Assembly: GCA_903936565.1 (NCBI GenBank)
Contig: CAIZVZ010000001.1
Location: 29,401 to 93,400, forward strand
Direction of reading: 5' to 3'
Length of the DNA: 64,000 bases
From: an uncultured bacterium
GTDB taxonomy: Bacteria > Patescibacteriota > Minisyncoccia > Phycocordibacterales > CAIZLB01
Shown here: piece by piece, positions 8,573 through 37,364 of the stretch
How positions within the stretch are numbered: the stretch's first letter is position 1
Layout: every line of letters starts with the position of its first letter
Program-made: the position numbers and the translations under genes
The notes under the pieces: model-generated
Databases searched by the model: none
What the model was told of the DNA's origin: nothing
What the model saw: only the letters and a program-made list of their open reading frames with translations

Positions 8573-8709
8573 GATTTGATATATATGTCAATAGTGCTCA
8601 TTGAAGATACATCTAAAATACTAAGTATTATAAGGATAATATTTAACAAAAAATCACCCCGACTCTCGCGAGCCGGGGCGTGGGGATGTAACCCAAACAT
8701 AATGAATGG

Positions 8710-9969
8710 TCAACCGCCCGGTTTATTCAGACGGTAAAATTGCTGAGCTGGTACGGAACCAGGTTGGCCGATAATCACGTACGCCATGTCACCCAGCGTT
8801 GAGGTGTAGAGGTATCCGTTGGCTTCCGCCACCAAAATCCTCTTCCCATCACCAGACATGGTCGCTGAGACAAAACGATACTGGTCGAAAGCACCAGAAC
8901 TGAGACACCCCGTTTTCATGGAATCCTCGGATGTGAAAATCCGACTTCTCCAGTCACCCAGGGCAACAATCTTGGTACAAGTCATATCGCTTGAGATGGA
9001 AGCCATTCCTTGTGCACCAGACGCTGAGGTTTGACTCCAGTTTGTTCCGCTGTCCATCGACATCCAGATCTCACCCCAGTGGGTAATCGAGATCAGTTTA
9101 CTTCCATCCGACGAGGATACTGCCGAAAGCCAGACATAGCTATTGCTGTAGTCCGTACCGTTAACAACTCCGTCGAGTGGATTTGGGATTCGAATCCATG
9201 TAGCACCACCGTCAGTTGATCGATACCTAGAACCACCGTTCACGAGCGCAAGCAACTTGAGCCCAGTTGAATCGGACGCGACTGCCGTCCAATTACGCAT
9301 ACCTGCGGCGGTACATGCTATCCACGACACACCTGAGTCCGTCGAGGTATAAATGTAGCCGTTTTGAACCGCTCCCGCCAGCCTCGTACCATCTGAGGAT
9401 GATGCGATTGCCACCCAGTTACGAGTAGTGTCAGATGTCCTTTGCATCCAAGTGAGACCAGCGTCAGTAGAGGTGTAAATATATCCGTACTTCACACCTG
9501 CCGCCAACTTGTTGCCACCTGCGCTTGTCGTAATACAACTCCATGCTCTTACTCCAGAAGCGACCGATTCCATCCACGTAGCACCGCTATCAGCGGATGT
9601 GCGGATGTTGGCATTAGTCGCGATAGCAACCAGCCTGGAGCCATCAAATGAAGAAGCTGTACCGACCCATGGTCGCTTAGCATCTGTCAGATGTGGAGTC
9701 AGAGCGGGGCCAGAAGCCGTACTAACATGATGCCAACCAGCCAAGTCAGCCGACTTTTCAACATCATAGTAACCGAGGGGTTTGGAAACCCATCTCAGCA
9801 CTGCGGGTGTCGTATCTGTTGCTGGCGAATAGGCCACCCCTTGCTGACCGATAACTTGCCCATGAGACAGTGAGCTTGCGCCCATCAACCCAAGTAGCGT
9901 CATCAAAGTCGCCAAGGCAAACCTTGCGAATCTCGTTGCAGGTCTTCCCTGCTTTGTATTTGTTTTCAT
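8710..9969 (-). CDS. secreted BNR/Asp-box repeat beta-propeller protein (sialidase/Ycf48-like fold)
   Basis: Signal peptide; at least five Asp-box motifs SxDxGxTW (YTSTDAGLTW, YTSTDSGVSW, RSTDGGATW, TSADSGATW, SMDSGTNW); GC-rich; TGA stop. Confidence 0.7.
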   Translation of the reverse strand: MKTNTKQGRPATRFARFALATLMTLLGLMGASSLSHGQVIGQQGVAYSPATDTTPAVLRWVSKPLGYYDVEKSADLAGWHHVSTASGPALTPHLTDAKRPWVGTASSFDGSRLVAIATNANIRTSADSGATWMESVASGVRAWSCITTSAGGNKLAAGVKYGYIYTSTDAGLTWMQRTSDTTRNWVAIASSSDGTRLAGAVQNGYIYTSTDSGVSWIACTAAGMRNWTAVASDSTGLKLLALVNGGSRYRSTDGGATWIRIPNPLDGVVNGTDYSNSYVWLSAVSSSDGSKLISITHWGEIWMSMDSGTNWSQTSASGAQGMASISSDMTCTKIVALGDWRSRIFTSEDSMKTGCLSSGAFDQYRFVSATMSGDGKRILVAEANGYLYTSTLGDMAYVIIGQPGSVPAQQFYRLNKPGG

Positions 9970-10048
9970 CGTTGTTCTTTTTCTTTCTGTGGTTTGATCA
10001 ATTTCAGTTTGATTTTTATTTTACACCTAAGCCCGTTAGACCTAGCGC

Positions 10049-22589: not shown

Positions 22590-24899
22590 TTATAGTGATG
22601 TCTTAACAACAGACATTGTTTTTGGTCCAAAATAACCCGAGGCAGGCGTTATCTTATTTGCCTTTTGATACTTAATTAAAGCAGCTTTTGTTGCTGGTCC
22701 AAATTTAGCACTTTCCTTACCTTTTGATCCAACGCCACTTTTTGCAACAAGAAACTTATTGTTATTTAAAAATTGTTGAAGCATCTTTACATCTTGTCCT
22801 GTCATGCCAAGTTTTAAATCACGTAAGAAAGACGCTTGTGATGATTGTAAATCAGATGATGAACTATATCTACAAAGCGCCGGTGAACTTGATGCAAAAA
22901 ATTCGTAGTTTAATGCTTTTGGATCTTTACATCCGTATATGATACTACCCGAAGAAGACTGGCCAAACGTTTGAGTTGAAACTGCAGGTTGAGCACTAAC
23001 ATTTATTGCAAAGGTTGCTGCAATACTATGTGCTGTTGTGACGTTAGTAAATCCATAAGAAGCAACCGGTCCAACAGAAACACCGTCAATCAATACATCC
23101 ACAGTGTGGTAGTTAGCTGATGGAGTAATGGTATAAACTTGAGAAGCACCATCATCTAGTGACGTTACCCCACTTGGACTAATCGTACCATTTGGTCCAG
23201 CTGATATAGTGATGGTGTGAGCAGTGGGAGAATTATAACGAGAGAGGTAAACATGAGAAACAAAGGCACTATTGTATTGTGGATATGTTACGTAAATATT
23301 ATTAGTTAAGTCCACTGCTATTTGAGGTGAGGAAACTGGATGAGCTACACCGAGGTCAATTGGAGTACCACTAGCAAAAGTATTGGTCCACGCAGACGCA
23401 TCACCATTCCAAATCCTAACATCTGTTCCATCATAACGTGAAAGATATATTTGGGGGTATGGATTAACGTTGGTATATTGCTGGTAAGTTACATAAACCT
23501 TACCATTTGTGTCTATAGCCAATTGAGGTACGGTTGCATCTTTTACTATACCCGTATCTATTGGATCACCATTCGCAAAAGTTGTGGTCCACGTAGATGC
23601 ACCGTTATCCCAAATCCTAACATCAGTACCATTATAACGTGAAAGGTAAATATGATTTTTTGTACCATTTGACTGATAATAAGTTACATAAACTCTACCG
23701 GTTGAATCTACTGCAACTTGGGGTGTGATCGCGCTTTGAGCTATACCTGTATCTATTGGAGTACCATTTGCAAAAGCTGTGGTCCATGATGAAGTGTTAC
23801 CGTCCCAGATTCTAACGTCGGTGCCATCATATCTAGAAAGATACACATGTAGATTAGAGCCATTACTCTGCTGATAAGTTATATAAACCCTACCCGCTCC
23901 GTCAACAGCCAATTGATTAGAATAAGCATCGTTTGCAGTACCGGTGTCTATAGGATCACCGTTAGCAAAAGTCGTGGTCCAAGATGAAGAATTACTATCC
24001 CAAATTCTAACATCAGTACCATCATAACGTGAAAGGTAGATGTGACTTTTAGCGCCATCTGATTGAGAATAAACTAAATAAACTTTGTTGGTTGAATCTA
24101 CAATTAGCTGTGGTTCAGAAGAACTATTAGCTGTACCCGTATCTACCGGAGTACCACTAGCAAAAGTATTGGTCCACGCAGACGCATCACCATTCCAAAT
24201 CCTAACATCTGTTCCATCGTAACGGGAAAGGTAGATATGAGTACTTACACCGTCAAATTGAAAATATGTTAAATAAACTTTATTATTTGAATCAATAGCC
24301 AACTGCGCAGAGCTAGCAGAGCTCGATATACCTGTATCTATTGGAGTACCATTTGCAAAAGTTGTGGTCCATAATGAAGTGTTACCATCCCAAATTCTAA
24401 CGTCTGTGCCATTATATCGGGAAAGATAAATATGGGTCACGAAACTGACTGTCTGTTGATAAATGACATAGACATTGTTATTGGCATCAATTGCCAATTG
24501 AGGTGCATTAGCATTATTTGCTGTGCCAAGGTCAATTGGAGTACCGCTAGCGAAGTTATTTGTCCATGCAGATGCGTCACCATTCCATATTTTAACATCC
24601 GTGCCGTCATGACGAGAAAGGTAGATGTGACTTGCGGAACCATTGGACTGTTGGAAAACAGTATATACCCTACCGTTTGAATCTGTAGCAACCTGAGGTG
24701 TTAATGCATTTTGAGCTATACCAGTATCTACTGGAGTACCGCTAGCCAAGGTATTTGTCCATGCGGATGCGTCACTATTCCAAATCTGCACAGATGAACT
24801 CGCCGCTGCCTTTGATGAGATTCCAAAAAATATAAAAACTGACACTAGTAAAATAATAGTAAATTTCTTATTCAACACCAAGGATGATATTTTAGACAT
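22590..24899 (-). CDS. cell-wall-associated repeat protein: signal peptide, ~10 tandem ~48-aa repeats, InlB-B-repeat-like domain, C-terminal peptidoglycan-binding (PG_binding_1-like) domain
   Basis: Repeat consensus IWNGDASAWTNTFASGTPIDTG....PQLAIDS.NKVYVTYQQS.G...HIYLSRYDGTDVR; TISAGPNGTISP...YTITPSANY; C-terminal GMTGQDVKMLQQFLN...ATKAALIKYQKANKI. Confidence 0.7.
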   Translation of the reverse strand: MSKISSLVLNKKFTIILLVSVFIFFGISSKAAASSSVQIWNSDASAWTNTLASGTPVDTGIAQNALTPQVATDSNGRVYTVFQQSNGSASHIYLSRHDGTDVKIWNGDASAWTNNFASGTPIDLGTANNANAPQLAIDANNNVYVIYQQTVSFVTHIYLSRYNGTDVRIWDGNTSLWTTTFANGTPIDTGISSSASSAQLAIDSNNKVYLTYFQFDGVSTHIYLSRYDGTDVRIWNGDASAWTNTFASGTPVDTGTANSSSEPQLIVDSTNKVYLVYSQSDGAKSHIYLSRYDGTDVRIWDSNSSSWTTTFANGDPIDTGTANDAYSNQLAVDGAGRVYITYQQSNGSNLHVYLSRYDGTDVRIWDGNTSSWTTAFANGTPIDTGIAQSAITPQVAVDSTGRVYVTYYQSNGTKNHIYLSRYNGTDVRIWDNGASTWTTTFANGDPIDTGIVKDATVPQLAIDTNGKVYVTYQQYTNVNPYPQIYLSRYDGTDVRIWNGDASAWTNTFASGTPIDLGVAHPVSSPQIAVDLTNNIYVTYPQYNSAFVSHVYLSRYNSPTAHTITISAGPNGTISPSGVTSLDDGASQVYTITPSANYHTVDVLIDGVSVGPVASYGFTNVTTAHSIAATFAINVSAQPAVSTQTFGQSSSGSIIYGCKDPKALNYEFFASSSPALCRYSSSSDLQSSQASFLRDLKLGMTGQDVKMLQQFLNNNKFLVAKSGVGSKGKESAKFGPATKAALIKYQKANKITPASGYFGPKTMSVVKTSL
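23324..24791. repeat. ~144-bp coding tandem repeats (~10 copies) within 22590..24899
   Basis: Recurrent near-identical DNA blocks (e.g. gcaaaagt(t/c)gtggtcca...tcccaaattctaacatc) matching the 48-aa protein repeat. Confidence 0.6.
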
Positions 24900-26951: not shown

Positions 26952-27992
26952 TTATTTCCTTCCCAATGCAAGCTTCAAAATATGGCCAAGAAACTCATGG
27001 GCCTTGACCCCTACTGAACTAAGGGATTTGAAGATTGTTGCTTCCTCTTGTAAACTTGGTTGAGTATTAACCTCTAACAAATATACCCCACGCCTTGGAT
27101 GAATCAAAAAATCAAAAGTACCATAATGTCGCAAGTTGAAATGCTCCTTAATACTCCTTACAGCATTCTCAATTATCCCCTTCTCTTCTTCAGTAATCAT
27201 TGCTGGTGCCTCAAATTCATAATCTCCAGAATTTTTGGAAGACCAATCGAAATGACCACCCTTAGTATTTGCAACCACACCTCCTACCCCACCCATTCCG
27301 CTAACTCCCTTATGCTTAACTTGAACAGGTATAGTGTTATACAAATCTTGACCTCGAAAATCCTCAATGAAGCCAGAGATTATTTCCTTTCCAGTCAAAT
27401 ATTCCTCAACTACTATTTCTTCACTGAAACCTCGAGTATGTTCAAGGGCCTCCAATAATTCGTTGAAGTTATGTGCAACGGAAATTCCAAGCGAAGATCC
27501 AGAACTTCTTGGCTTAACAATAATTGGCATTGGAAATGATTTAAATAGATCGTGAGCAATCGGTTCAACATCTTCATCTAGTTTTATTTTTATCTCCTTA
27601 TAGTATGGAGATTTAATTCCTAGGTTTTTGAAATGCTCTTTTGCCAACGCTTTATTGAGTGCCATTGCGGACCCAAGTGCCTTTGTTCCAGTATACGGTT
27701 TAGCAAATGAATCTAGTATCCCCTGCACTCTTCCATCCCCACCATACGCTCCGTGCATTGCGTTAAATAGAACATCCACCTTACTAACCGCATCCTCTGG
27801 CGTCACAGGCGCCCCAGCAATGTGCCAAATACTGTCCCTGTCGACAAATATATCAACTGGTTCATATTCCTCACACAAAGGCTCCTTTTTAAGCAAACTC
27901 AAAATATGCTTCCCTGTAGTTAAGGAAATATCATATTCCTGAGAAGGTCCCCCTCGTAATACTCCCACCTTTGTCTTTGCTCTATATAACAT
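26952..27992 (-). CDS. ddl: D-alanine--D-alanine ligase (ATP-grasp), paralogue 1
   Basis: VGVLRGGPSQEYDISL, ...HGAYGGDGRVQGILD..., C-terminal GTFDFLI...YLLEVNTQPSL typical of Ddl. Confidence 0.78.
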   Translation of the reverse strand: MLYRAKTKVGVLRGGPSQEYDISLTTGKHILSLLKKEPLCEEYEPVDIFVDRDSIWHIAGAPVTPEDAVSKVDVLFNAMHGAYGGDGRVQGILDSFAKPYTGTKALGSAMALNKALAKEHFKNLGIKSPYYKEIKIKLDEDVEPIAHDLFKSFPMPIIVKPRSSGSSLGISVAHNFNELLEALEHTRGFSEEIVVEEYLTGKEIISGFIEDFRGQDLYNTIPVQVKHKGVSGMGGVGGVVANTKGGHFDWSSKNSGDYEFEAPAMITEEEKGIIENAVRSIKEHFNLRHYGTFDFLIHPRRGVYLLEVNTQPSLQEEATIFKSLSSVGVKAHEFLGHILKLALGRK

Positions 27993-28067: not shown

Positions 28068-28104
28068 TACAAACAAATATACAGCACAGAATTATGTGCT
28101 GTAT
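28068..28104 (-). terminator. rho-independent terminator of giant gene 28135..32523 (10-bp stem atacagcaca/tgtgctgtat)
   Basis: Perfect 10-bp stem, loop gaatta, T-rich tract on minus strand. Confidence 0.5.
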
Positions 28105-28134
28105 ATTGTTTTTAGATTAAGTTGTCTATATTAT

Positions 28135-31100
28135 TTATTTTTCAATCACCTTCGGTACCTTGGAGCATTTCCCCTCCGCTAAAGCACTTAGGTTAGCTGT
28201 TATCGGATTACCATCTTCTCCGACTCCACTTGTATACTTAAGATCACAGTACAATGTATGCTTACCAACTCCTAATCTAATTAGCGCGGATGGTGTTGGA
28301 GTAACATTTACGGTATTAATACCCTTATCTACGTAACAGGAGGCATCGTGGACATTGTTATATACCACTCCGTTACCATCTATCATTGTTGTACTTGCAT
28401 ATCCGTAGAAATTACACTTCTCATCAGTACTTGATGCCCAACTTGGATTTGAGTAGAATCTAAGGCCTTTAATTGGTTTATTAGATGTCCCTACATATGG
28501 ATCATTCGTACAAGGACTTTTATTGACAAAGTTCGGTGACAACAAAATATTACTAGGAGCAGAAGGTATCACGTCTGTACCACTCATCATATATGCATAA
28601 GCAACATAATTTGATAACGACTGTGGATTGAAACCATTGCCGAGGGTAAATTGAGTGATACTAGCTGGAGTCTCTCCCAATAAGGTACTTGATTGATACA
28701 CATTATATCCATCTGCATTAGTTACACTATTCCATGTTATTGTTGCTCGATTAGACCCATTAACATCTGTACAATATTCACCACTTATCAATGGTGCCGC
28801 TACAGTCGTAGTTACAGGGTTAGTTGCATTAATATTGAAGATAGTCCAACTAGATATTTTTCCACTATTTTGATCCTGAGCCGCAACCTTCATAGGTGTT
28901 GTTGTTGCAGTAGCCCAAATATGATCTGCTGGAACTCTTACTCCATAAGCATAATAATCACTAACATAATCCACGGCGCTATCACTATTCCAATCGAATA
29001 GATATCTGACCCTATCATCAACAGTTTGTGCAAAAACTTTTTTGATTGCAAACATAATCGAAGCAAACAATGACTCCTTCTTGTTTTTCCCCATCGATCC
29101 TCCAGATCCCCCAGATGCATTATCTGACCATGCTTCATAGGTATTATTTTCTCCAACAGTAACATCATGTGGCCCTGCTACATTTGGCGCAGAAGGTGTA
29201 AGTTCTCCTATTGGTTGAATAACGTTGAAACTAATAGGATAAACAGACTCTCTAAATCTTAACTGATAAGGCGAATAGTAATCAACCAACGTATTTGGAC
29301 CAAAGTTTAGATCTTCATGATAGGAATTTAGAAAATTCTGATAAGTTGAATAACATCTATTTCTAGTGTAATTAAAATAAGGATATGGTACAGGACAACC
29401 GATTACAGTACCACTTGAATTTACCATCTTGTTAACATTTATACATCCAACCTCACCAGGCACACAAAATCCAACTCCATTATCATTTGTAAGATTATTT
29501 GATACATTTGCATTATTAACTGTCACTTGACGCTTATCATGTAGCGGTACAGCATTTGTCTTACAGATTCCATCTGACCCCTTCCATCCATAATAATAGT
29601 ATCCAAATGTTGGTGCATAATACATGTAAGCGGTTTTTGAACCAGGTATGGTTGGGGTACATGCAAATCCATCTGCAATGTCACATTCCCAATTTTCAGA
29701 GTCATTGTCCGGAACTAAGGGTGCACCCCACTCTGGATATGTGCTTGGGTCGATAATATAAGGATTAAGGCCACCAACACTAAATGAGAGGCTTTTGTTT
29801 GGAGGATCAACTGAAAGTGGAACAAAAATATCTATATTTTGAGTAATGCCAGTTACTGGATTTAGGTATGGCTTTGTGCCCACCTTGTTTCCTGGAGTAC
29901 AAATTTGGTTTGATGCTGGATATTCAGCATCAGCGATCCAACTACCATAAGGGGTGTCTTGTGTATACCCAATTCCTGACCAAACAATATTATTATTTGT
30001 TGTAGAATTTGTCTTGTCAAAATTAAAGTGTACTTTTGTGTCAATTATTAAGTTGCTTCCATTAGGAATTGCGATACCCAAATCATCTCTAACTGAAGAG
30101 TCATAACTTATAGACGATGTAGTAGGCTGAAGCGCAGGGGCCCAGTCACCGTCGGTCAAACTACCTGTGTCACTTGCCCAATAATATAAATATGGAGCAT
30201 CATTAACAATGGTTGAATACCAATAATTCCAAACATAGTCCCACACCCACCAGAATCCGGGAGGAATTGGCAAACCCGGCGGTTTAGGAACCTTATAATA
30301 CTCGTAAGACTTTACCAGCGTACTTGTATTGTGATTCCAACAAACACTTTTAACAGTAATATCTTTCCAACCTTTAGTGTTTGCAGGTGAATTGAATCTT
30401 ATATAAGTATTTGTGTGCTCAGTAATACGCGCCAACGCTCCTCCAATATGAAGACTTTTTACATTTTTAAAATTGTCACCATGAATCATTGAATCTACAC
30501 CTCCAGTAGTCGGACTATGAGGTGGCTGAGGAGGTCGAGAAAGTGTTTTTACTTTTGGATCGAGACATATGAATTTAAAAGTCCCCTTCTCTACGCATCG
30601 AGCAAGAATTGGTATAGGGTGATCTCTGAAAATTATTGGTTGAGGAGCCTCCCCTGATATTCTATCAAAGGTAAACATAATCAAGCTATCTGATTGGCTT
30701 ATAATAGTTCCAGGGTAAACGCCAACTCTAATCGCCCTTACTTGTGTCAATTTCGTACCTCCAGCAAAAGCGGTAACTTTTCTCGGATCACAGTTCATTT
30801 GATCTGGGCAATTCTCAGCTTCCATCGGTGTCATACTTTGAACATCAAAACACGAGTCTGAAGAACCACTATTTGAACCATTCGGGTCCGGGTATGTACC
30901 ACTGTTAGAATCTCCAGTACCAGAATCGGAGCCAGCATTCGGGTCATATCCCGTACCAGAATCGGAGCCGGTACCAGAATCGGAGCCAGCATTCGGGTCA
31001 TATCCCGTACCAGAATCGTAGCCGGTACCAGAATCGTACGACTCCTGAGCATGCGCGTTCAAATGGATCGAAAACGCACTGATTAGCATTCCAAAAATAA

Positions 31101-32523
31101 TCAAAATTCTAATTTTATTTTTCATCAGCTTTAGAAGAAAACTTTTAATTAAACGGTGCTTGAATGCAATAAAAATTATTATAAACAAGAGTATTAATAT
31201 ACCCAATATCTTTACTGTCATCATAAACCATTTATTTGAAACCAAATCTCCAAACATTGATGACTTACACTTATTTGGATCTACTGAATTACAATCGTAA
31301 GGTATATAAACTTCATCAACTAATTTTTGACCACTAAATAATGTTGCGTGTAATTTGAAATTCTTATAAGTTTTACTTGGTGTAAAATCTTGAGCAATAG
31401 CCCCCATATCTCCTTTTATCGAGCCATTATATTCATATGCCACGATTGTGTTGTTGTCCTCATCTAAAAGCTCCATCTTCAATTTATTGTCTTCGATTGG
31501 GGTATTACTATTTGATGCATTATGAAAACATGAGAATATTGTGTTATTTTGACCTGATATCAGTGGATAAGATGTAATTGAAGGAAAATTAATTCTGGGC
31601 ATATTTACTCCATCCCTTGCAAACCTAGCGGTCATTACAGACTTCGTATCTTTATAATTAAGCACTGCTTCAACATAGTAAACAGAGAAATTATTATCAC
31701 TAACAACTACTGGCAACTCAACAGTTTTGCCAGCCTCCATTATTGCAACATGAGTAACTGAACTGATTTTATTTTCAGGTGCTTGTGTGTCCCATTTATA
31801 AATATTAAACTCAACTTTTACAGCCTTTCTTTCTTTTGTACTATTGGAAATCGCAAAAGTTGTTGTCACAGGCTCCGTTGCACTGACAATTGGAGAAAAG
31901 GCGGCAGCTGTATATGGCTTATTATTAACCTTAACCCCATCTCTTTTAAACATAACCCCCGTAGCCTGCTGACCCGTGACAATAAAGCTAGACGAACCCC
32001 CGATGACATCATCAGTAAAACTTAGTCCTGCTAAATTAAATTTATTGCTAGTTACAAAATATGTAGCTATTCTATAGGTTCCACCAATTGCGTATGCTGG
32101 CAAATTCCATTTAAATGAAATAGGCAACTTTTCTCCAGCCATCAAGTTAATCTTATCTTGCACGACAAAGGTATCTAATACATCTGGCCCATTTCCATCA
32201 TTAATAGTTCTTGCTCTAAAAATCTTAGCATATAGCTTACCATCAACTATTGGATAATTATTTTCATTCAACAAATATCCAGAAAAATCCATAGTCGTTC
32301 CAGAGACATATTGTCCCATTCGTGGAATAGTACTTATTTTTACACTGTTAAATTTATAGTAGTCCGCGCATTCAGCATTAGTTGTGGTGGCAAAATATCT
32401 CTCACCCAAGTCTAGAGCAGAATCAGCCGATAGAACTTTACCACTGCCCAATATTGAAAAAGTGATTACAATTACGGACAAAATGATTGAAGAAAACAAC
32501 AATCTTTTAAAAGAAATTTTCAT
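28135..32523 (-). CDS. giant (1462 aa) surface protein: signal peptide, ~430-aa N-terminal ectodomain, internal TM hairpin whose second helix looks like a signal peptide (MKNKIRILIIFGMLISAFSIHLNAHA), Ser/Gly/Asp-rich linker, very large C-terminal ectodomain with FN3-like module
   Basis: Continuous ORF, hydrophobicity pattern, ITWNSVTNADGYNVYQSS FN3-like motif, C-terminal SCY...VGKHTLYC motif shared with 34025..37207. Confidence 0.7.
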   Translation of the reverse strand: MKISFKRLLFSSIILSVIVITFSILGSGKVLSADSALDLGERYFATTTNAECADYYKFNSVKISTIPRMGQYVSGTTMDFSGYLLNENNYPIVDGKLYAKIFRARTINDGNGPDVLDTFVVQDKINLMAGEKLPISFKWNLPAYAIGGTYRIATYFVTSNKFNLAGLSFTDDVIGGSSSFIVTGQQATGVMFKRDGVKVNNKPYTAAAFSPIVSATEPVTTTFAISNSTKERKAVKVEFNIYKWDTQAPENKISSVTHVAIMEAGKTVELPVVVSDNNFSVYYVEAVLNYKDTKSVMTARFARDGVNMPRINFPSITSYPLISGQNNTIFSCFHNASNSNTPIEDNKLKMELLDEDNNTIVAYEYNGSIKGDMGAIAQDFTPSKTYKNFKLHATLFSGQKLVDEVYIPYDCNSVDPNKCKSSMFGDLVSNKWFMMTVKILGILILLFIIIFIAFKHRLIKSFLLKLMKNKIRILIIFGMLISAFSIHLNAHAQESYDSGTGYDSGTGYDPNAGSDSGTGSDSGTGYDPNAGSDSGTGDSNSGTYPDPNGSNSGSSDSCFDVQSMTPMEAENCPDQMNCDPRKVTAFAGGTKLTQVRAIRVGVYPGTIISQSDSLIMFTFDRISGEAPQPIIFRDHPIPILARCVEKGTFKFICLDPKVKTLSRPPQPPHSPTTGGVDSMIHGDNFKNVKSLHIGGALARITEHTNTYIRFNSPANTKGWKDITVKSVCWNHNTSTLVKSYEYYKVPKPPGLPIPPGFWWVWDYVWNYWYSTIVNDAPYLYYWASDTGSLTDGDWAPALQPTTSSISYDSSVRDDLGIAIPNGSNLIIDTKVHFNFDKTNSTTNNNIVWSGIGYTQDTPYGSWIADAEYPASNQICTPGNKVGTKPYLNPVTGITQNIDIFVPLSVDPPNKSLSFSVGGLNPYIIDPSTYPEWGAPLVPDNDSENWECDIADGFACTPTIPGSKTAYMYYAPTFGYYYYGWKGSDGICKTNAVPLHDKRQVTVNNANVSNNLTNDNGVGFCVPGEVGCINVNKMVNSSGTVIGCPVPYPYFNYTRNRCYSTYQNFLNSYHEDLNFGPNTLVDYYSPYQLRFRESVYPISFNVIQPIGELTPSAPNVAGPHDVTVGENNTYEAWSDNASGGSGGSMGKNKKESLFASIMFAIKKVFAQTVDDRVRYLFDWNSDSAVDYVSDYYAYGVRVPADHIWATATTTPMKVAAQDQNSGKISSWTIFNINATNPVTTTVAAPLISGEYCTDVNGSNRATITWNSVTNADGYNVYQSSTLLGETPASITQFTLGNGFNPQSLSNYVAYAYMMSGTDVIPSAPSNILLSPNFVNKSPCTNDPYVGTSNKPIKGLRFYSNPSWASSTDEKCNFYGYASTTMIDGNGVVYNNVHDASCYVDKGINTVNVTPTPSALIRLGVGKHTLYCDLKYTSGVGEDGNPITANLSALAEGKCSKVPKVIEK
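30917..31040. repeat. 55-bp coding tandem repeat (2.2 copies) encoding SGTGYDPNAGSDSGTG linker
   Basis: taccagaatcggagccagcattcgggtcatatcccg occurs at 30917 and again at 30972. Confidence 0.5.
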
Positions 32524-32616
32524 ACATTAATTATAATGCACTTTGCAATTAACGTCTACAATAAAAAGTGCATAAGTGTTGAGAACTTTTTTGAAATGAC
32601 CATTGAAATAAATTGC

Positions 32617-33978
32617 TTATAAAAAATTCTTTTTCCTCCTATTTTTGTGAAATGCAATGGCAAAACGATGAGATTCAGCATTGATTCTTATGATTTGCTC
32701 ACTTATTTGCTTTTTAAAATTCTCAAATTTCTTCCAGTCTTCCTTATTGGCAAATAGGATATCTTTAGATTTATGATGACTATCTTTTACGACGCTACAA
32801 AATAGAATATTTGAGTTTTTTGTTACTTTTAAATTATTGCCTCTGTCTACATTATTATTCCAGGTATCATACGCTCTTTTCAATTGAATTTTATTTCCAT
32901 CCAAGACAACAATATCTGGACGCTCCCATTCTTCATGCTTTATCCTTCTATTAACGACCTCTTCCAGCGCACCGGGATCGTTTGCCTTCTCAAAATTATT
33001 AATTATAAATTTCCTGTATTGCCCCTTATCTAATTCTCCATTTTCCATAACAACCATCACTCCAACCATATCCTTACCTGACAAATGAGCTATGTCATAG
33101 GCCTCAATTCTAAGTCTACTGATGTAATCCTGCCCACCAGCACCAAGACCCTCCTCCCTTGCCACATCTTTAATGAGTGAAACATCCTGAATATGATTCA
33201 AGGCAAAAATAGTCCTCTTAATTTCCCCCGCCTTCTCAAACTCTTTAGTTTTAGCATATCCGGCCATCTGTTTTTCAAGACTCTTAAGCAGTGCCGGTTT
33301 TTTGCCTTCAAAAAACATTTTGATATTCTTTATCTGAACTCCATAATCCTTCTTAGAAATCTCCCCCGTACATACTCCAGGACATAAACCAATCATCCTA
33401 TTGAAGCATGGGCGTGGATTTATGTTCGTAGTAACAGTATTTGCACCACCCACATTGGAACCTTTGGCATCAGCGGCAATATAGGGCACACACTTATCCC
33501 TGAATGGAAATATTTTTCTAATTAACTTTAGTGCCTCCTTTAATTCACCGCCATATGGATATGGTCCAAAGACTTCCTTGTATAATTCTGATTTATTCTG
33601 CTCAAGCAATCTTCCACGAACAACAAGAACTCGGGGAAAATCCTCATCGGTTATGACCACATAATTGTAACTCTTATTATCCTTGTCTTTAGTATTGTAT
33701 TTAGGTTGTTTTTCTTTAATCAGTTGTGCCTCCAAGATTAAGGCTTCGAGCACTGAATCAGTGGACTGAAATTCAACCCTATCAGCAATAGTCACCATAT
33801 CGACCAAAAGTCGCCCCCTTGTCTTAATTAGGTCACTTGAAAAATAACTACGAACACGCTGTTTTAGGCTGGTTGCTTTTCCAACATACAGAAGATCCTT
33901 CGCATGCTTAAAAAGATAGACACCGGGCGAATCTGGCAACTTTGTTGCAAAAGATGATTCAAAATCCTTCTTATTCAT
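32617..33978 (-). CDS. uvrC: excinuclease ABC subunit C lacking the C-terminal (HhH)2 domain
   Basis: GIY-YIG PGVYLFK...LLYVGKATSLKQRVRSYF; FGPYPYG; LIRKIFPFRDKC; Cys cluster CFNRMIGLCPGVC; RIEAYDIAHLSGKDMVGVMVV; PDIVVLDGNKIQL; ends at ESHRFAIAFHKNRRKK where the HhH domain normally begins. Confidence 0.85.
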   Translation of the reverse strand: MNKKDFESSFATKLPDSPGVYLFKHAKDLLYVGKATSLKQRVRSYFSSDLIKTRGRLLVDMVTIADRVEFQSTDSVLEALILEAQLIKEKQPKYNTKDKDNKSYNYVVITDEDFPRVLVVRGRLLEQNKSELYKEVFGPYPYGGELKEALKLIRKIFPFRDKCVPYIAADAKGSNVGGANTVTTNINPRPCFNRMIGLCPGVCTGEISKKDYGVQIKNIKMFFEGKKPALLKSLEKQMAGYAKTKEFEKAGEIKRTIFALNHIQDVSLIKDVAREEGLGAGGQDYISRLRIEAYDIAHLSGKDMVGVMVVMENGELDKGQYRKFIINNFEKANDPGALEEVVNRRIKHEEWERPDIVVLDGNKIQLKRAYDTWNNNVDRGNNLKVTKNSNILFCSVVKDSHHKSKDILFANKEDWKKFENFKKQISEQIIRINAESHRFAIAFHKNRRKKNFL

Positions 33979-34024
33979 AACACAATGAGTCTATCATTTA
34001 TTTTTGATTTTTGCAGGATTCTTA

Positions 34025-37000
34025 TTAATCTTCCGTAAATTCAGAACTTGAGAAACATTCTCTTTTTTTATCGTACTCAACATCTATTGAATCATCATAA
34101 ATCCCCTTACACCACAAACTGTGTCTGCCGACAGAAACTTCAAGGTTTCCTGCTATAGATATCTTATTATCAGAACTTGCAACCTGTTCTGTTAGAGATA
34201 TTTGTCCGGTTTTATTTTTTAAGTAGCACGACTTAACGTTTTCTGCTTCCAAATACAATTTACACTTACCACCAATATTCGTATTATTTGGATTAAATTT
34301 AAAGGTATTAATCAAAGGTCCGCCACAAACCTCCGTTGTATCAACCCAAGACCAATTTGAAGTTGTAGTATCACATTTATTTGGAGTTTGTACACGACCT
34401 GTTATACGATTACATTTCTGTCCGGGCTTAACACCACAGGATGTTTGAACGGAAACATGACAGTTTTCAGTAATCGTAGAGCTAGATGTTTTGATTGAGA
34501 CACTTAAATTGTAATTTCCTATCGTATCATACTTTCTAGTATAAGTTGGGTCAGTCGCTCCTAAAATTGGACTGTTATTTTCCATCCATTGATAACTTAA
34601 AACCCCGCTACTAGCTGCGCTTGATTTAATTACTTCCAAAATTACATTATCACCCTGAGTCACGGGGTTAGGTTTGGCTATACACGCAAAATCATTATCA
34701 CCAATTACAGTCGGATCACAAGATGGGTCTGATAATAGATCACAACCTAGTGGCTTAGCTGTTGTAAAGGAAGACTTTCCAACAGTCCAAACCTCTCCAT
34801 TATAGACACTAACACGAAGATTATAATATGTATTTGGACTTAATCCTGATACCGTCCTATTTTTAGATACAGTACTTCTAACTGCATCAGCGCTTCCAGT
34901 AGACGCTAGATTCTTTAACATGCTTATAGCAGAATAAATCCTAGCTATAAATGTAGATCTGTTGACAGATGCCACAACATCCTCCTCTATAACCATAGTT
35001 CCATCTAAATTAAATGGATTACTTGGAAATGTATCATATTTTGATACTTCAATTTTATATTTTTTCTGAGGCTTAGTATCCGTATAATCCCATTTTACTC
35101 TTGCTGAATATTCTGCTAACTCATCAGCACTAGCAACAAGTGCTGGGTCACCCTCTTTGCTAACATCAGAAGGTCCGACTGTAAACTCAAAGTAATTAAC
35201 CATAGGACTTGAAACAGGCTTTCCAGGTCCATAACAGCGATACATATTATTTTTAGAACGTATAATACCTGAGTAGAATATTGAAGTTGGATTCTCGTCC
35301 AAGACTAATGTAGGGCTACCCCTTTTCCCAAACCCGCTTTCACCTTCATAAGCAGTAGTACATTTAAAAAATGAACCGTAAGTAACATTTAACGGCGGTC
35401 CAGCTTGATTACCTTTGATACCTCCAAAACGTGTAACATTTGAATGATAGAAAGCATTTGAATTAGTTCTCAGTATGTATTTACCAGGTTCCATAGGGGC
35501 AAACACCTTAGTTGATGTCCTATTTGCAGATGTAGGTGTAAAGCTTGCAAATTTATAATAACTATTTTGCCTATGATCACCAGATCCCGCGGCGGAATTA
35601 AAAGCAGAGACGGAGCTGACAAGCGTTCCATCTTCTTTGTATATTCCATAATCTACATGTGTCCAAAGAGTGGAGTTGTGACAAACCTGAGCCATACCTT
35701 GTGAATAAATGTCATTTCCCATATTTTCACCTGGCAAAAATACACTCTTAGCAAGAGATGTACTCAAATTAAATTGACCGGGATTTGTACATTGACCACC
35801 AGAACAGATTGGCACCTTTGCAAAATCAGGAGTAATTCTAGCTGCATGAACTTCTGAAGTGGAGAAACCTAGCACGAGCATAAATATCGCAATCGGTATA
35901 AGAACAGATTTCTTTCTTCTAAGATAAATAGCGCCAATGGCAAATACCACAATCAGTCCCAATATTAAATATTGTATAAAACCCATTCCCATTTTTGGTG
36001 CTGTATCAGTCAAGACCGTATTATACTTGGCAAGCTCAGCATTACCCTTTGTAATCACAACCTCCACACTTACAGAATCAGCATCAAAAGATACTGGTAA
36101 TTCAAAATTTACAATACTAGATAATGTATTTAGATCAATATCTTTTTGACTTGATGCAATAACTTCATTCTTCTCATTAGTTAGAGTCATCTTAATTGTA
36201 CTAGTTCCAATATCCTCAGAAAGACCTGTTTCTATGTTTACTGGAGAGCCTGTGTATTCAACATTAACAACTGCCATCTCTCCTTGTTTAAACTTTGATT
36301 GATTAATATTGACATTAGGAATGGTGGCCATTGCACCTTCTACAATCCACCTACTTGATATAAATGGTGCTCTTTCTTTTCCATTTGAATCAAGGAAATA
36401 CAGTTGCCCATCATATACTCCAGCCTTAGAAAAATCCTTAAGATCAAGTATTAACTCCTTTTTTTCACCCGCTTTGATTGTAAACATATCATATTCCTTA
36501 TTACCAACCTCTGGCCTGGATGGCGCCATATCATATACTTTTAATTTAGGAATTAAGTCTAGGTTGGCTGAAGAATTATTTTGTAATTCAAAAATTATCT
36601 TTGGGGCTGTATTTTTAGCAACAGTAGGACCTTGTTGTAATGTATATTCGGTATCCATAACTTTAAGAAAAGCATAATTAACTACAGCAGAATCCAAGAA
36701 AGCTCCTAATTTTATATTTCTTCCTGTAGATCCTAATACTTCACCTGTTTTCAGAATTGCAATGAATTCTATTCTTGCTGTATCAATATTAGCGCTAGCA
36801 GAATCAGGCATTTTAAATTTTATCTTAATCTCCTTACTTGAATTTTTAGGCAGAAAGACTTCTGCTATATTTTTTTGATATCCATATTCCTGAGAAGGAC
36901 TACCATCTTTACTGGTCATTAAAAATGCAGAAATTGATATATCTGAATAATCCACAGATGTCTTGTTACTCATTGGTATAACAATGTTTACAATATCACC

Positions 37001-37207
37001 CTGATTATAGACTCGGTCCTTAAAGACGGGTTCTGACATTCTAATTCCAAAAAGATCTTTATCGTTTAATATTTTCCCCTTAACTTCCCTAATATCTATT
37101 CTCTCTGGTGATCCACCTGTAGGAATTGTTAAATTTTCTGCAAAGGCAGGGGTTGTTGAAATTAAAAAGGACAGCGACAAAACATAGAATAATATTTTTT
37201 TCATCAT
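34025..37207 (-). CDS. giant (1060 aa) surface protein with the same architecture as 28135..32523: signal peptide, ~400-aa N-terminal ectodomain, internal TM hairpin (…IYLRRKKSVLIPIAIFMLVLGFSTSEVHAA), large C-terminal ectodomain with FN3-like module
   Basis: Hydrophobicity pattern; C-terminal SCY...VGRHSLWC motif paralogous to the other giant protein. Confidence 0.7.
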   Translation of the reverse strand: MMKKILFYVLSLSFLISTTPAFAENLTIPTGGSPERIDIREVKGKILNDKDLFGIRMSEPVFKDRVYNQGDIVNIVIPMSNKTSVDYSDISISAFLMTSKDGSPSQEYGYQKNIAEVFLPKNSSKEIKIKFKMPDSASANIDTARIEFIAILKTGEVLGSTGRNIKLGAFLDSAVVNYAFLKVMDTEYTLQQGPTVAKNTAPKIIFELQNNSSANLDLIPKLKVYDMAPSRPEVGNKEYDMFTIKAGEKKELILDLKDFSKAGVYDGQLYFLDSNGKERAPFISSRWIVEGAMATIPNVNINQSKFKQGEMAVVNVEYTGSPVNIETGLSEDIGTSTIKMTLTNEKNEVIASSQKDIDLNTLSSIVNFELPVSFDADSVSVEVVITKGNAELAKYNTVLTDTAPKMGMGFIQYLILGLIVVFAIGAIYLRRKKSVLIPIAIFMLVLGFSTSEVHAARITPDFAKVPICSGGQCTNPGQFNLSTSLAKSVFLPGENMGNDIYSQGMAQVCHNSTLWTHVDYGIYKEDGTLVSSVSAFNSAAGSGDHRQNSYYKFASFTPTSANRTSTKVFAPMEPGKYILRTNSNAFYHSNVTRFGGIKGNQAGPPLNVTYGSFFKCTTAYEGESGFGKRGSPTLVLDENPTSIFYSGIIRSKNNMYRCYGPGKPVSSPMVNYFEFTVGPSDVSKEGDPALVASADELAEYSARVKWDYTDTKPQKKYKIEVSKYDTFPSNPFNLDGTMVIEEDVVASVNRSTFIARIYSAISMLKNLASTGSADAVRSTVSKNRTVSGLSPNTYYNLRVSVYNGEVWTVGKSSFTTAKPLGCDLLSDPSCDPTVIGDNDFACIAKPNPVTQGDNVILEVIKSSAASSGVLSYQWMENNSPILGATDPTYTRKYDTIGNYNLSVSIKTSSSTITENCHVSVQTSCGVKPGQKCNRITGRVQTPNKCDTTTSNWSWVDTTEVCGGPLINTFKFNPNNTNIGGKCKLYLEAENVKSCYLKNKTGQISLTEQVASSDNKISIAGNLEVSVGRHSLWCKGIYDDSIDVEYDKKRECFSSSEFTED

Positions 37208-37364
37208 TCAATTATATACCACAACGCATAAGTTTAATAGGATGTAATATCCACATAATTATTTTTATCATTCCACTCTATTTTTAACCCCAAGCAATGG
37301 ACACACATTTACAAAGTAATCATTTAATTGGATTGATTTTTAATTAATTGCTATAATTTATCAC

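What the first reader, a model, noticed from the sequence alone, without database searches (positions are those of the whole stretch)
28135..37207. uvrC lacking its HhH domain sits between two paralogous giant surface proteins that share an internal TM-hairpin/second-signal-peptide architecture
Three co-directional minus-strand genes with 46- and 93-bp gaps: a 1060-aa surface protein, a 453-aa UvrC that stops at the ESHRFAI motif where the (HhH)2 domain normally starts, and a 1462-aa surface protein. The two giants are built the same way. Each has a cleavable-looking N-terminal signal, a ~400-430-aa ectodomain, a TM helix and a short basic loop (RRKKS; KHRLIKSFLLKLMKNK). This is followed by a second hydrophobic helix ending in an AxA-type site (VHAA; AHA), a 600-970-aa C-terminal ectodomain with an FN3-like module, and a shared terminal motif SCY-x(25-35)-VG[KR]H[TS]L[YW]C. 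The same unusual layout appearing twice argues against a one-off fusion artefact. It suggests a family of two-ectodomain envelope proteins anchored by a TM hairpin and possibly cleaved by signal peptidase at the internal site. Co-transcription with a DNA-repair nuclease is odd and unexplained.
Basis: partly seen in the sequence, partly recalled or inferred. Interest (0 to 1): 0.7.

Follow-up and report, generated by a model that had tools for sequence, protein, structure and literature searches.

The report
Fused anchor-plus-secreted surface protein pairs
The two giant genes are each an in-frame fusion of a conserved neighbouring gene pair (a membrane-anchored stalk protein and a secreted surface protein) that is widespread in Parcubacteria-type ultra-small bacteria, which explains the odd internal "second signal peptide"; the short UvrC between them is normal for this lineage and sits there by chance.

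Summary
The three minus-strand ORFs, the 46- and 93-bp gaps, the HhH-less UvrC and the SP/ectodomain/TM/basic loop/TM-AxA/ectodomain layout are all present. Identical ORF lengths recur in independently assembled contigs.

A (1462 aa) and B (1060 aa) are not similar by BLASTP. They are remote homologues by profile comparison (hhalign 98%, E 3e-14) and share a C-terminal domain. They belong to a large, unnamed Parcubacteria family. It has no Pfam or NCBIfam model for the N-domain, and about 2,100 50%-identity clusters match at E<=1e-30.

The key result is that the same modules often occur as two adjacent genes. One is an N gene: signal peptide, three beta-sandwich domains and a C-terminal TM anchor. 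The other, 13-31 bp away, is a C gene that starts with an ordinary cleavable signal peptide. So the "second TM" in A and B is the retained signal peptide of the C module. Fused and split states interchanged at least about 22 times.

Cleavage by signal peptidase is likely but unproven. The short UvrC is clade-typical (8/8 relatives by Pfam). uvrC synteny holds only in the closest relatives. Biological role is unknown; a two-part surface structure is my inference.

The parts
28135..32523 (-). Gene A, 1462 aa: fused N-module plus C-module surface protein
   Evidence: ORF. Full-length homologues P0001, P0002, P0005, P0011. N-domain HMM 527.6 bits, post-domain 181.4, PKD-like 80.1, C-terminal 33.1.
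32425..32523 (-). A residues 1-33: N-terminal Sec-type signal peptide (MKISFKR..., h-region, VLSA|D)
   Evidence: Sequence; hydropathy peak. The cleavage site is inferred from the -3/-1 rule.
31234..32406 (-). A residues 40-430: conserved N-domain of three beta-sandwich domains. Invariant C52, Y56, N86, N88, Y90, P91, W139, P142, G166, L167, F169, R300, C332, Y409, C411.
   Evidence: Alignment invariants. AF2 pLDDT about 95 and all-beta. Only generic Ig/MG/CARDB-like fold matches.
31162..31230 (-). A residues 432-454: TM1, the stop-transfer anchor. It is homologous to the C-terminal TM anchor of split N genes.
   Evidence: Split forms end just after this helix.
31108..31161 (-). A residues 455-472: basic cytoplasmic loop KHRLIKSFLLKLMKNKIR. 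It contains an internal ATG (M467, 31123-31125) that looks like the relic start codon of the C gene.
   Evidence: DNA. MKNK is conserved at this position in P0001, P0005 and P0009. Loop net charge is never negative across the family.
31048..31107 (-). A residues 473-492: TM2, a retained signal peptide (h-region ILIIFGMLISAFSI, c-region HLNAHA|Q)
   Evidence: In split loci the equivalent segment is the N-terminal signal peptide of the C gene.
30853..31047 (-). A residues 493-557: disordered Gly/Ser/Asp-rich linker. It is encoded partly by a 54-bp x 2.2 tandem repeat at 30917-31036.
   Evidence: AF2 pLDDT about 30; tandem repeat.
30349..30528 (-). A residues 666-725: IPT/TIG domain
   Evidence: Pfam PF01833, 24.9 bits, above the 20.9 cut-off.
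29497..30243 (-). A residues 761-1009: conserved 'post-hairpin' beta domain. In most relatives it directly follows the AxA site (consensus ...EAKSVxW...).
   Evidence: The same domain follows the signal peptide in separate C genes.
28780..29217 (-). A residues 1103-1248: PKD-like domain (family consensus TDPDGD..Y..DW)
   Evidence: Family HMM 80.1 bits; consensus.
28138..28494 (-). A residues 1344-1462: Cys-containing C-terminal domain with CY...GKHTLYC, ending ...KVIEK-COOH
   Evidence: E at position -2 in 116 of 200 family members.
32617..33978 (-). uvrC, 453 aa: GIY-YIG (18-95), UVR motif (230-260), PF08459 endonuclease (290-441). It has no (HhH)2 and no PF22920 middle domain.
34025..37207 (-). 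Gene B, 1060 aa: divergent fused member of the same superfamily
   Evidence: hhalign against the A family.
37139..37207 (-). B residues 1-23: N-terminal signal peptide (MMKKILF...PAFA|E)
   Evidence: Cleavage site inferred.
36008..37045 (-). B residues about 55-400: divergent N-domain, all-beta
   Evidence: hhalign A97-430 aligns to B94-400. N-domain HMM gives only 7.6 bits. The AF2 model is all-beta at pLDDT 60-83.
35921..35992 (-). B residues 406-429: TM1 anchor
35909..35920 (-). B residues 430-433: RRKK cytoplasmic loop
35843..35908 (-). B residues 434-455: TM2, a signal-peptide-like segment ending VHA|A
34784..35125 (-). B residues 695-808: FN3-like region (below threshold)
   Evidence: Pfam fn3 20.9 bits against a cut-off of 25.
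34466..34681 (-). B residues 843-914: PKD-like region (below threshold)
   Evidence: Pfam PKD_4 20.9 bits against a cut-off of 27.
34100..34336 (-). B residues 958-1036: C-terminal domain shared with A (CY...VGRHSLWC)
   Evidence: A-family C-terminal HMM 21.5 bits. Bridging proteins P0014 and P0018 combine an A-like N-domain with a B-like C-terminus at E about 1e-16.
28076..28107 (.). 13-bp-stem palindromic terminator-like hairpin downstream of gene A. It is the only such site on the minus strand in this region.

Best explanation
A and B are two diverged copies of a Parcubacteria-specific envelope cassette made of two modules.

Module N is a Sec signal peptide, about 380 aa of three tandem beta-sandwich domains with a near-invariant residue set, a YDCxxIDPxxC motif and a C-terminal TM anchor with a basic tail. 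Module C is a Sec signal peptide followed by a variable string of beta domains. These include the 'post' domain, PKD/TIG/FN3/BNR-type modules, and a Cys-containing C-terminal domain that usually ends in ...E-x-COOH.

In many relatives N and C are separate genes 13-31 bp apart. In A and B they are fused in frame. The anchor of N (TM1), its basic tail (the loop) and the signal peptide of C (TM2 plus AxA) together form the 'TM hairpin'.

Inferred mechanism:
- The first signal peptide exports module N.
- TM1 stops transfer, and the basic loop stays in the cytoplasm.
- TM2 re-initiates export of module C.
- Signal peptidase I probably cuts after the small-x-small site (A: AHA|Q, after residue 492; B: VHA|A, after residue 455). 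This would give the same two mature products as the split genes: a membrane-anchored conserved stalk and a free, variable surface module that presumably stays associated with it.

What is shown: the homology, the family-wide architecture, the split gene pairs and the repeated fusion/fission. What is inferred: the topology, the cleavage, the N-C association and the surface (adhesion or envelope-scaffold) role.

The uvrC between A and B is a genuine but minimal UvrC of the type normal for this clade. It is a neighbour, not a functional partner.
For: 1. Family-wide layout. 80 of 80 A homologues and 113 of 114 further cluster representatives carry the TM pair at about 410-560. The loop is short (median 5 aa), with median net charge +2 and never negative. 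A small-x-small site follows TM2, most often [AV]EA|KSVxW (70 of 81 by a strict regex).

2. Family size. 2,125 50%-identity representatives match at E<=1e-30, though some of these may match only the profile's widespread PKD-like positions. In most of the top 150 the best-scoring match runs from the N-domain well into the C module.

3. Split forms. An N-domain-only profile returns 173 hits. The best 120 are 365-607 aa (median 476), and most of those inspected end right after one TM helix plus a short tail. In 4 of 4 split loci examined, a C-type gene lies 13-31 bp away. It starts with a canonical signal peptide and carries one or more of the post, PKD-like and C-terminal domains, or, in L046, a conserved tail motif (L043, L044, L045, L046).

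4. Interchange. The fused/split state changes at least 22 times on an NJ tree of 306 N-domains, against 93 for shuffled labels. This suggests the two states are functionally interchangeable.

5. The A clade keeps a relic 'MKNK' start at the TM2 n-region.

6. A and B are related: hhalign 98.2%, E 2.7e-14; C-terminal domain 21.5 bits; bridging proteins P0014, P0018 and P0023.

7. Structure. The N-domain is three confident beta-sandwiches, followed by two helices.

8. Real ORFs. The same ORF lengths occur in independent assemblies and in related genomes L001, L003 and L004.

9. UvrC. 8 of 8 relatives lack HhH and PF22920, while 2 non-CPR controls and a Gracilibacteria UvrC keep HhH. uvrC-A synteny is seen only in L001, L003 and L004.
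Against: - Cleavage at the internal site is not demonstrated, and no SignalP/DeepTMHMM run was possible.
- TM2 is not clearly shorter than TM1. Uncharged-run medians are 19 and 20 aa, so length does not separate 'signal peptide' from 'anchor'.
- In A and its close relatives a long disordered Gly/Ser/Asp linker follows TM2 directly. That makes more sense as a tether to an uncleaved anchor.
- K is the most common residue at +1.
- B's link to the family rests on profile-profile comparison, part of whose score comes from the hydrophobic segments. The N-domain HMM alone gives only 7.6 bits. B lacks the post domain and the invariant residues of the A-type N-domain.
- Fold searches give only generic beta-sandwich matches, so the biological role is unassigned.
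- Sampling of fused and split forms is biased by how the two searches ranked hits, and some 'split' entries may be truncated or frameshifted genes.
Confidence: 0.7

Rival explanations
1. One reading: a single uncleaved polypeptide with two ectodomains, held in the membrane by a permanent TM hairpin. TM2 acts as a reverse signal-anchor, and the Gly/Ser linker tethers the outer module.
For: The disordered GS/D-rich linker sits directly after TM2 in A and its clade. The TM2 uncharged run is as long as TM1. The hairpin is retained in nearly all fused members.
Against: The homologous segment in split relatives is an ordinary N-terminal signal peptide with an AxA site. The small-x-small site is conserved after TM2. 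Frequent fusion/fission is easiest to explain if both states give the same mature products.
Confidence: 0.27
2. Artefact: each giant ORF is really two ordinary genes merged by a sequencing or assembly error (a missed stop or frameshift).
For: Split two-gene versions do exist in relatives. A has an in-frame ATG at the junction.
Against: Identical 1462-aa and 1059/1060-aa ORFs occur on the independently assembled contigs shown, out of at least 13 carrying the locus. The closest genomes L001, L003 and L004 have fused A homologues of 1434, 1430 and 1830 aa. About 190 distinct fused cluster representatives exist. There is no stop in 4.4 kb and 3.2 kb of 33-38% GC DNA.
Confidence: 0.02
3. B-uvrC-A is a functional operon that links DNA repair to these envelope proteins.
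For: The genes are co-directional, the gaps are short, and no terminator-like site lies between them. The uvrC then A order is kept in L001, L003 and L004.
Against: B is not upstream of uvrC in those genomes. The remaining CPR loci fetched with uvrC (L005-L021) show no A or B neighbour. Family members elsewhere follow PBP2, ftsZ, rpoC, recO, smc or rpsJ. A TATAAT-like box lies just upstream of the A and B start codons.
Confidence: 0.04
4. Functional reading: N and C form a two-component S-layer-like coat. N would be the membrane stalk and C the outer, variable canopy, analogous to Sulfolobus SlaB/SlaA.
For: N has the SlaB-like parts list (signal peptide, three beta-sandwich domains, C-terminal TM; the SlaB architecture is recalled from my own knowledge). 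The family is widespread among Parcubacteria lineages (Kaiser-, Moran-, Taylorbacteria) and sits among housekeeping genes. The C modules are variable.
Against: There is no lattice or expression evidence. Fold matches are generic. A different six-Ig-domain protein has been proposed as the Patescibacteria S-layer protein (bioRxiv 10.1101/2024.05.28.596244); I could not test whether it is related.
Confidence: 0.12

Closest known systems
Internal signal peptides in viral envelope polyproteins (flavivirus prM/E/NS1 junctions, bunyavirus Gn-Gc); from my own knowledge
   Same: An upstream ectodomain ends in a stop-transfer TM helix. A short cytoplasmic turn follows, then a second helix that acts as the signal sequence for the next ectodomain and carries a signal-peptidase site.
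   Different: Those are viral polyproteins processed by the host ER signal peptidase. Here the gene is a chromosomal bacterial one, the two modules also exist as separate genes, and cleavage is only inferred.
Bradyrhizobium japonicum FbcH cytochrome b-c1 precursor (recalled from memory; not found in the paper library)
   Same: A bacterial fusion of two normally separate membrane or periplasmic proteins, in which an internal signal-peptide-like segment is reported to be cleaved to give two mature proteins.
   Different: It is an unrelated respiratory protein with no beta-sandwich ectodomains, and a single lineage-specific fusion rather than repeated fusion/fission.
Sulfolobales S-layer pair SlaB (anchor) / SlaA (canopy); from my own knowledge
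   Same: Adjacent genes, where one protein has a signal peptide, beta-sandwich domains and a C-terminal TM anchor, and the other is a large secreted beta-rich partner.
   Different: No sequence or specific fold relationship was found. No coiled coil was predicted in N. The organisms are bacteria. Lattice formation was not tested.
CARDB / alpha-2-macroglobulin MG-type beta-sandwich arrays
   Different: TM-scores are very low (TMq <= 0.18). A itself gets no Pfam CARDB hit. No thioester or bait region was seen, but that was only by eye.
Canonical UvrC (TIGR00194) and the UvrC homologue Cho
   Same: GIY-YIG 3'-incision domain, UVR motif and PF08459 RNase H-like 5'-incision domain, with the DDH-type motifs visible by eye (EAYDIAH, VVLDGN, ESHRFAI).
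   Different: It lacks the (HhH)2 domain and the PF22920 middle domain. It scores 280.3 against the 285.45 cut-off of TIGR00194. Unlike Cho, it keeps the C-terminal endonuclease domain.

Membership tests
Unnamed Parcubacteria N/C envelope family (defined here) | Conserved N-domain (three beta-sandwiches; invariant C52, Y56, N86, N88, Y90, P91, W139 and others) | tested here: met
   A scores 527.6 bits against the family HMM, so A is a member. B scores only 7.6 bits, but hhalign gives 98.2%, E 2.7e-14. B is a divergent relative that lacks the invariant set.
Unnamed Parcubacteria N/C envelope family | TM anchor after the YDCxxIDPxxC motif, followed either by a stop codon and an adjacent signal-peptide-led C gene (split form) or by a basic loop and a signal-peptide-like TM2 (fused form) | tested here: met
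   A has YDCNSVDPNKC plus the TM pair. B has the TM pair but not the Cys motif.
Unnamed Parcubacteria N/C envelope family | Post-hairpin beta domain (consensus EAKSVxW...YYW...) | tested here: met
   A residues 761-1009 score 181.4 bits. It is not detected in B (score <= 0), so this feature is met for A only.
Unnamed Parcubacteria N/C envelope family | C-terminal Cys domain with a conserved extreme C-terminus | tested here: met
   A 33.1 bits, B 21.5 bits. The CY...G[KR]H.L.C motif is in 16 distinct members. A ends ...IEK and B ends ...TED.
Sec signal peptide / signal peptidase I substrate (internal site) | Positively charged n-region, hydrophobic h-region, small-x-small at -3/-1, and no Pro at +1 | tested here: met
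   A: KLMKNKIR / ILIIFGMLISAFSI / AHA|Q. B: RRKK / SVLIPIAIFMLVLGFSTS / VHA|A. The rule was applied by regex and by eye, not with SignalP.
Sec signal peptide / signal peptidase I substrate (internal site) | Actual proteolytic cleavage in vivo | not testable with these tools
   Needs proteomics or expression experiments.
Sortase-anchored (LPXTG) surface proteins | LPXTG-type motif just before a C-terminal TM helix and basic tail | tested here: not met
   The sequence before TM1 is ...SSMFGDLVSNKW in A and ...LTDTAPKMGMG in B. Family members share YDCxxIDPxxC, with no LPXTG (read by eye).
UvrC, excinuclease ABC subunit C (TIGR00194 / Pfam architecture) | GIY-YIG nuclease domain | tested here: met
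   PF01541, 34.7 bits against a 22.6 cut-off; matches 1yd6/1ycz.
UvrC | UvrB-interacting UVR motif | tested here: inconclusive
   PF02151, 17.1 bits, below the 21.5 cut-off.
UvrC | C-terminal RNase H-like endonuclease domain | tested here: met
   PF08459, 102.1 bits. Aligns to 2nrt_A residues 23-164.
UvrC | (HhH)2 DNA-binding domain | tested here: not met
   There is no HHH hit at E<=0.1, and the protein ends 12 residues after the endonuclease domain. The same holds in 8 of 8 relatives, while both controls have it.
UvrC | Equivalog score threshold (TIGR00194) | tested here: not met
   280.3 bits against a cut-off of 285.45. The score is just below threshold, as expected from the missing domains.
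   fn3 20.9 bits (cut-off 25) and PKD_4 20.9 bits (cut-off 27). The B structure model is too poor to decide.
Proposed Patescibacteria six-Ig-domain S-layer protein (bioRxiv 10.1101/2024.05.28.596244) | Homology to A0A1G2EN61, A0A0G1WWP5 and the other listed proteins | not tested
   Those sequences could not be retrieved, and the afdb50 library was unavailable. The paper mentions no internal TM hairpin.

The most novel reading that the evidence does not exclude
Parcubacteria carry a lineage-wide two-part surface device. A highly conserved membrane-anchored beta-sandwich stalk (N) would hold a rapidly diversifying secreted partner (C), possibly through C's conserved extreme C-terminal tail (...E-x-COOH or ...WKEVAP-COOH). 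When the two genes fuse, the product would be a true bacterial polyprotein, resolved by signal peptidase at an internal signal peptide. That would make these genomes a natural series of fused and split states of one export pathway, and N/C a candidate for the host-contact or envelope structure of these episymbionts.
Probability: 0.3. Interest if true: 0.65.

Novelty: new variant of a known kind. Interest (0 to 1): 0.5.

Why it matters
Parcubacteria and their relatives are mostly uncultured, and their cell-surface biology is almost entirely unknown. This family is large and its N-domain is strongly conserved. Every database copy is labelled hypothetical (one carries a CARDB label), and no Pfam or NCBIfam model covers the N-domain.

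Recognising it as an anchor-plus-secreted-partner cassette gives a concrete candidate for envelope or host-contact functions. The repeated fusion and fission give a simple, testable prediction: internal signal-peptidase processing. It also has practical value for annotation. The apparent 'TM hairpin giants' and the roughly 470-aa 'CARDB-like' proteins with their neighbours should be annotated as one system.

Separately, the clade-wide loss of the (HhH)2 and middle domains of UvrC raises a question. In E. coli the HhH domain is needed for 5' incision (from my own knowledge). How nucleotide excision repair makes that cut in these bacteria is open.

Tried and rejected
- BLASTP of A against B gave no significant similarity (best E 0.074). 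Profile methods were needed.
- Pfam and NCBIfam gave nothing for the N-domain or hairpin.
- The afdb50 fold library was unavailable.
- The AF2 model of B from a 4-sequence alignment was too poor to use (pLDDT 44.5).
- I looked for a conserved operon partner that would hint at function. Neighbours are varied housekeeping genes: PBP2, ftsZ, rpoC with the S26 peptidase, recO, smc and rpsJ/rplC. Nothing is consistent, and the S26 signal peptidase is adjacent in only one locus.
- Comparing TM1 and TM2 lengths to separate anchor from signal peptide was not discriminating.
- The promoter and terminator scan gave promoter-like hits at chance level, so operon structure is unresolved.
- Literature searches for HhH-less UvrC in Patescibacteria, for this family, and for bacterial internal-signal-peptide polyproteins found no direct description.
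- Exact-sequence cluster look-up gave only 'hypothetical protein' or 'CARDB domain-containing protein' names.
- I considered and rejected an LPXTG/sortase signal, alpha-2-macroglobulin membership and an assembly artefact.

Full report
**What is in the window**

Three co-directional minus-strand ORFs occupy 28135-37207. These are A (28135-32523, 1462 aa), uvrC (32617-33978, 453 aa) and B (34025-37207, 1060 aa). The gaps are 93 and 46 bp.

The surrounding genes are ddl, tRNA-Ala, dnaB, recR, rplU, rmuC and yqeY. GC content is low, at 33-40%. Homologues are named Paceibacterota, Kaiser-, Moran- and Taylorbacteria, or Parcubacteria. Together these place the window in a Parcubacteria-type member of the Patescibacteria (CPR).

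The exact UvrC protein is found on at least 13 independently assembled contigs (34 index blocks). Wherever the flanking genes are complete they are 1462 aa and 1059/1060 aa. The long ORFs are therefore not an assembly accident.

**UvrC**

Pfam finds GIY-YIG (34.7 bits), a sub-threshold UVR motif (17.1 bits) and the PF08459 RNase H-like endonuclease domain (102.1 bits). It finds no helix-hairpin-helix domain. TIGR00194 scores 280.3 against a cut-off of 285.45.

Against solved structures, residues 289-451 align to residues 23-164 of the 220-residue T. maritima C-terminal fragment 2nrt_A. To my knowledge the unmatched C-terminal end of that chain is where its (HhH)2 domain lies.

This is not peculiar to the locus:
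- Among 35 loci fetched from species-representative genomes, about 20 CPR relatives have a UvrC of 396-500 aa. Several non-CPR hits are 605-679 aa.
- Pfam on ten of them shows that 8 of 8 Parcubacteria/Magasanikbacteria proteins lack both HhH and the PF22920 middle domain. Two non-CPR controls have both.
- A Gracilibacteria UvrC, translated with code 25, is about 618 aa from its first Met and its C-terminus reads, by eye, as an HhH motif. The loss is clade-specific rather than phylum-wide.

**The layout of A and B**

Hydropathy, the AF2 model and direct reading agree.
- A: signal peptide (1-33), N ectodomain, TM1 (about 432-454), the loop KHRLIKSFLLKLMKNKIR, TM2 (473-486) ending HLNAHA|QE, then about 970 aa.
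- B: signal peptide (1-23), N ectodomain, TM1 (about 406-429), RRKK, TM2 (434-451) ending EVHA|AR, then about 600 aa.

**Are A and B related?**

BLASTP says no (best E 0.074). Profile methods say yes.

The A-family alignment against the B-family alignment gives hhalign probability 98.2%, E 2.7e-14. It spans 349 co-linear columns covering A97-490 and B94-458. Part of that score comes from the hydrophobic segments. The N-domain HMM alone gives B only 7.6 bits, although B is still the second-best ORF in the whole window after A.

The C-terminal domain HMM hits B 958-1036 at 21.5 bits. It is found in A, B and 14 other distinct members, with 0-1 hits in control regions. Proteins P0014, P0018 and P0023 combine an A-type N-domain with a B-type C-terminus at E down to 1e-16. 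B is therefore a divergent relative. It lacks the invariant residues of the A-type N-domain and the post-hairpin domain.

**A large, unnamed family**

A has 80 detectable homologues of 874-1830 aa. Essentially all have the N-terminal signal and two hydrophobic helices at about 410-560.

The N-domain is strongly conserved, with 20 invariant positions including four Cys, NxNxYP, GLSFTDD and RINFPS. After TM2 most members read [AV]EA|KSVxW. The inter-helix loop has a median length of 5 aa and median net charge +2, and is never negative.

A profile search of 1.84 billion cluster representatives finds 2,125 proteins at E<=1e-30. Some of these may match only the profile's widespread PKD-like positions. 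The top 150 are 686-1965 aa. In most of them the best-scoring match runs from the N-domain well into the C module. Of the 114 new representatives, 113 have the helix pair. No Pfam or NCBIfam model covers the N-domain. Source names are 'hypothetical protein' or, once, 'CARDB domain-containing protein'.

**The key result: the same modules as two genes**

Searching with an N-domain-only profile returned 173 hits. The best 120 are 365-607 aa (median 476). Most of those inspected end just after a single TM helix plus a short tail, for example ...IWIYRRVSRKPNTTQLPPM. A few are truncated or look frameshifted.

I examined four such loci on long contigs:
- L043: the N gene (486 aa) is followed 31 bp later by a 477-aa gene. 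That gene starts MAGAFKKGVTIYVIGMIIVLALPVIAAADTYALKW and carries the post (116.7 bits), PKD-like and C-terminal domains. A second C-type gene lies just upstream.
- L044: the N gene (463 aa) is followed 13 bp later by a 453-aa gene with the signal peptide MKKIYTLSLALVLAGVLAVSSDAEA|V, plus PKD-like and C-terminal domains.
- L045: a C gene (487 aa, ...LTSAQ|SVVW) lies 14 bp upstream of the N gene. The pair sits between rpsJ and rplC.
- L046: two tandem pairs are present, a divergent 417-aa N-like gene with an 805-aa gene, and a 505-aa N gene with a 1619-aa C gene.

So TM1 of A and B corresponds to the C-terminal anchor of an N protein. TM2 plus the AxA site corresponds to the N-terminal signal peptide of a C protein. 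In the A clade the loop even keeps an in-frame ATG and an MKNK n-region at the right place.

On an NJ tree of 306 N-domains, the fused/split state changes at least 22 times, against 93 for shuffled labels. The tree is approximate and the sampling is biased. The result still argues for repeated, tolerated fusion and fission.

**Structure**

The AF2 model of A(1-1010) has mean pLDDT 76.6 and pTM 0.60. It shows three confident beta-sandwich domains (residues 50-420, pLDDT about 95) and helices at 431-466 and 471-487. A disordered Gly/Ser/Asp linker covers 487-555, followed by a beta-rich TIG region and a beta-rich post domain.

**How it most likely works**

These points are shown:
- the homology between A and B;
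- the family-wide architecture;
- the split gene pairs;
- the equivalence of TM2 to a signal peptide.

These steps are inferred:
- The first signal peptide exports N.
- TM1 stops transfer, and the basic loop stays inside (positive-inside rule).
- TM2 restarts export of C.
- Signal peptidase I then cuts after AHA (A) or VHA (B). This gives the same two products as the split genes: a conserved anchored stalk and a variable free module that presumably binds it.

The fused/split interchange and the conserved AxA site favour cleavage. Three things argue for an uncleaved tether in at least the A clade:
- the long disordered linker right after TM2 in A, which is partly a 54-bp tandem repeat;
- the similar lengths of TM1 and TM2;
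- the frequent Lys at +1.

I put cleavage at roughly 55-60%.

The biological role is open. It could be adhesion or host contact, an envelope scaffold, or an S-layer component. A different six-Ig-domain protein has been proposed as the Patescibacteria S-layer protein (bioRxiv 10.1101/2024.05.28.596244). I could not test whether it is related.

**Linkage to uvrC**

The order uvrC then A-homologue is kept only in the three closest genomes, L001, L003 and L004, where UvrC identity is 66-78%. B is not upstream in those genomes. The remaining CPR loci fetched with uvrC (L005-L021) show no A or B neighbour.

Family members elsewhere sit after mreBCD-PBP2, ftsAZ, rpoBC (next to an S26 signal peptidase), recO, smc or rpsJ. 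These are dense housekeeping neighbourhoods typical of small genomes.

No terminator-like site separates the three genes. TATAAT-like boxes lie a few bases upstream of the A and B start codons, but promoter-like hits are at chance level. Co-transcription is unresolved, and a functional link is unlikely.

**Comparison with known systems and novelty**

The closest mechanistic analogues are viral envelope polyproteins with anchor-plus-internal-signal helix pairs, and the B. japonicum FbcH cytochrome b-c1 precursor. Both are recalled from my own knowledge. Architecturally the split pair resembles archaeal SlaB/SlaA.

None of these is a family relationship. A is a clear member, and B a divergent relative, of an undescribed Parcubacteria family. 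I rate the finding as a new variant of known kinds (Sec-exported beta-sandwich surface proteins, and gene fusion with an internal signal peptide). Interest is moderate. The UvrC aspect is ordinary for the clade, though the clade-wide domain loss deserves a note.

Noticed in passing
window 32617-33978; loci L001-L021, L027: UvrC in Parcubacteria/Magasanikbacteria relatives lacks both the (HhH)2 domain and the PF22920 middle domain (8 of 8 by Pfam; about 20 proteins are 396-500 aa). A Gracilibacteria UvrC (code 25) is about 618 aa and appears to keep HhH. This is a clade-wide minimal UvrC, not a local truncation.
   Followed up: partly
family-wide; A 28138-28180, B 34028-34070: The extreme C-termini of the C modules are conserved. 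116 of 200 members have Glu at position -2 (...VIEK, ...SFQEL, ...LEEI). Another group ends ...[WF][KR]E[IV][AS]P(F). This may be a docking or sorting tail; it was not tested.
   Followed up: partly
window 30917-31036: A near-perfect 54-bp x 2.2 tandem repeat (98% matches) encodes the SGTGYD/GSDSGTG linker directly after TM2 of A. It is likely length-variable between strains.
   Followed up: no
window 26952-27992 and 59070-59999: There are two D-Ala-D-Ala ligase (ddl) genes in one 64-kb window. One lies immediately downstream of gene A.
   Followed up: no
window 8001-10000 (ORFs 7089-8249 and 8710-9969, minus strand): A GC-rich stretch (0.50 against about 0.37 elsewhere) overlaps a BNR/Sortilin-like ORF and an ORF with no Pfam match. 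It could be acquired DNA or a composition-biased repeat protein.
   Followed up: no
window 32530-32535 and about 37211-37216: TATAAT-like boxes lie only 3-7 nt upstream of the ATG of A and of B, and no Shine-Dalgarno sequence is visible. This suggests leaderless or near-leaderless transcripts. Promoter-like hits overall are at chance level.
   Followed up: partly
window 28076-28107: A 13-bp-stem palindromic, bidirectional terminator-like hairpin lies between gene A and ddl.
   Followed up: no
L045 3523-6392; L046 1232-11402: In one relative the C/N pair is inserted between rpsJ and rplC of the ribosomal protein operon. In another, two N/C pairs lie in tandem (one divergent), which mirrors the A and B duplication in this window.
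   Followed up: partly
window 22590-24899 (minus strand): A 769-aa secreted protein has a C-terminal PG_binding_1 domain. Similar peptidoglycan-binding proteins were reported as highly expressed in cultured Paceibacteria (PMC10936435).
   Followed up: no
window 17544-19484 (minus strand): A DUF2207 membrane protein (646 aa) has a large ectodomain followed by several TM helices. It is another uncharacterised envelope protein in the window.
   Followed up: no
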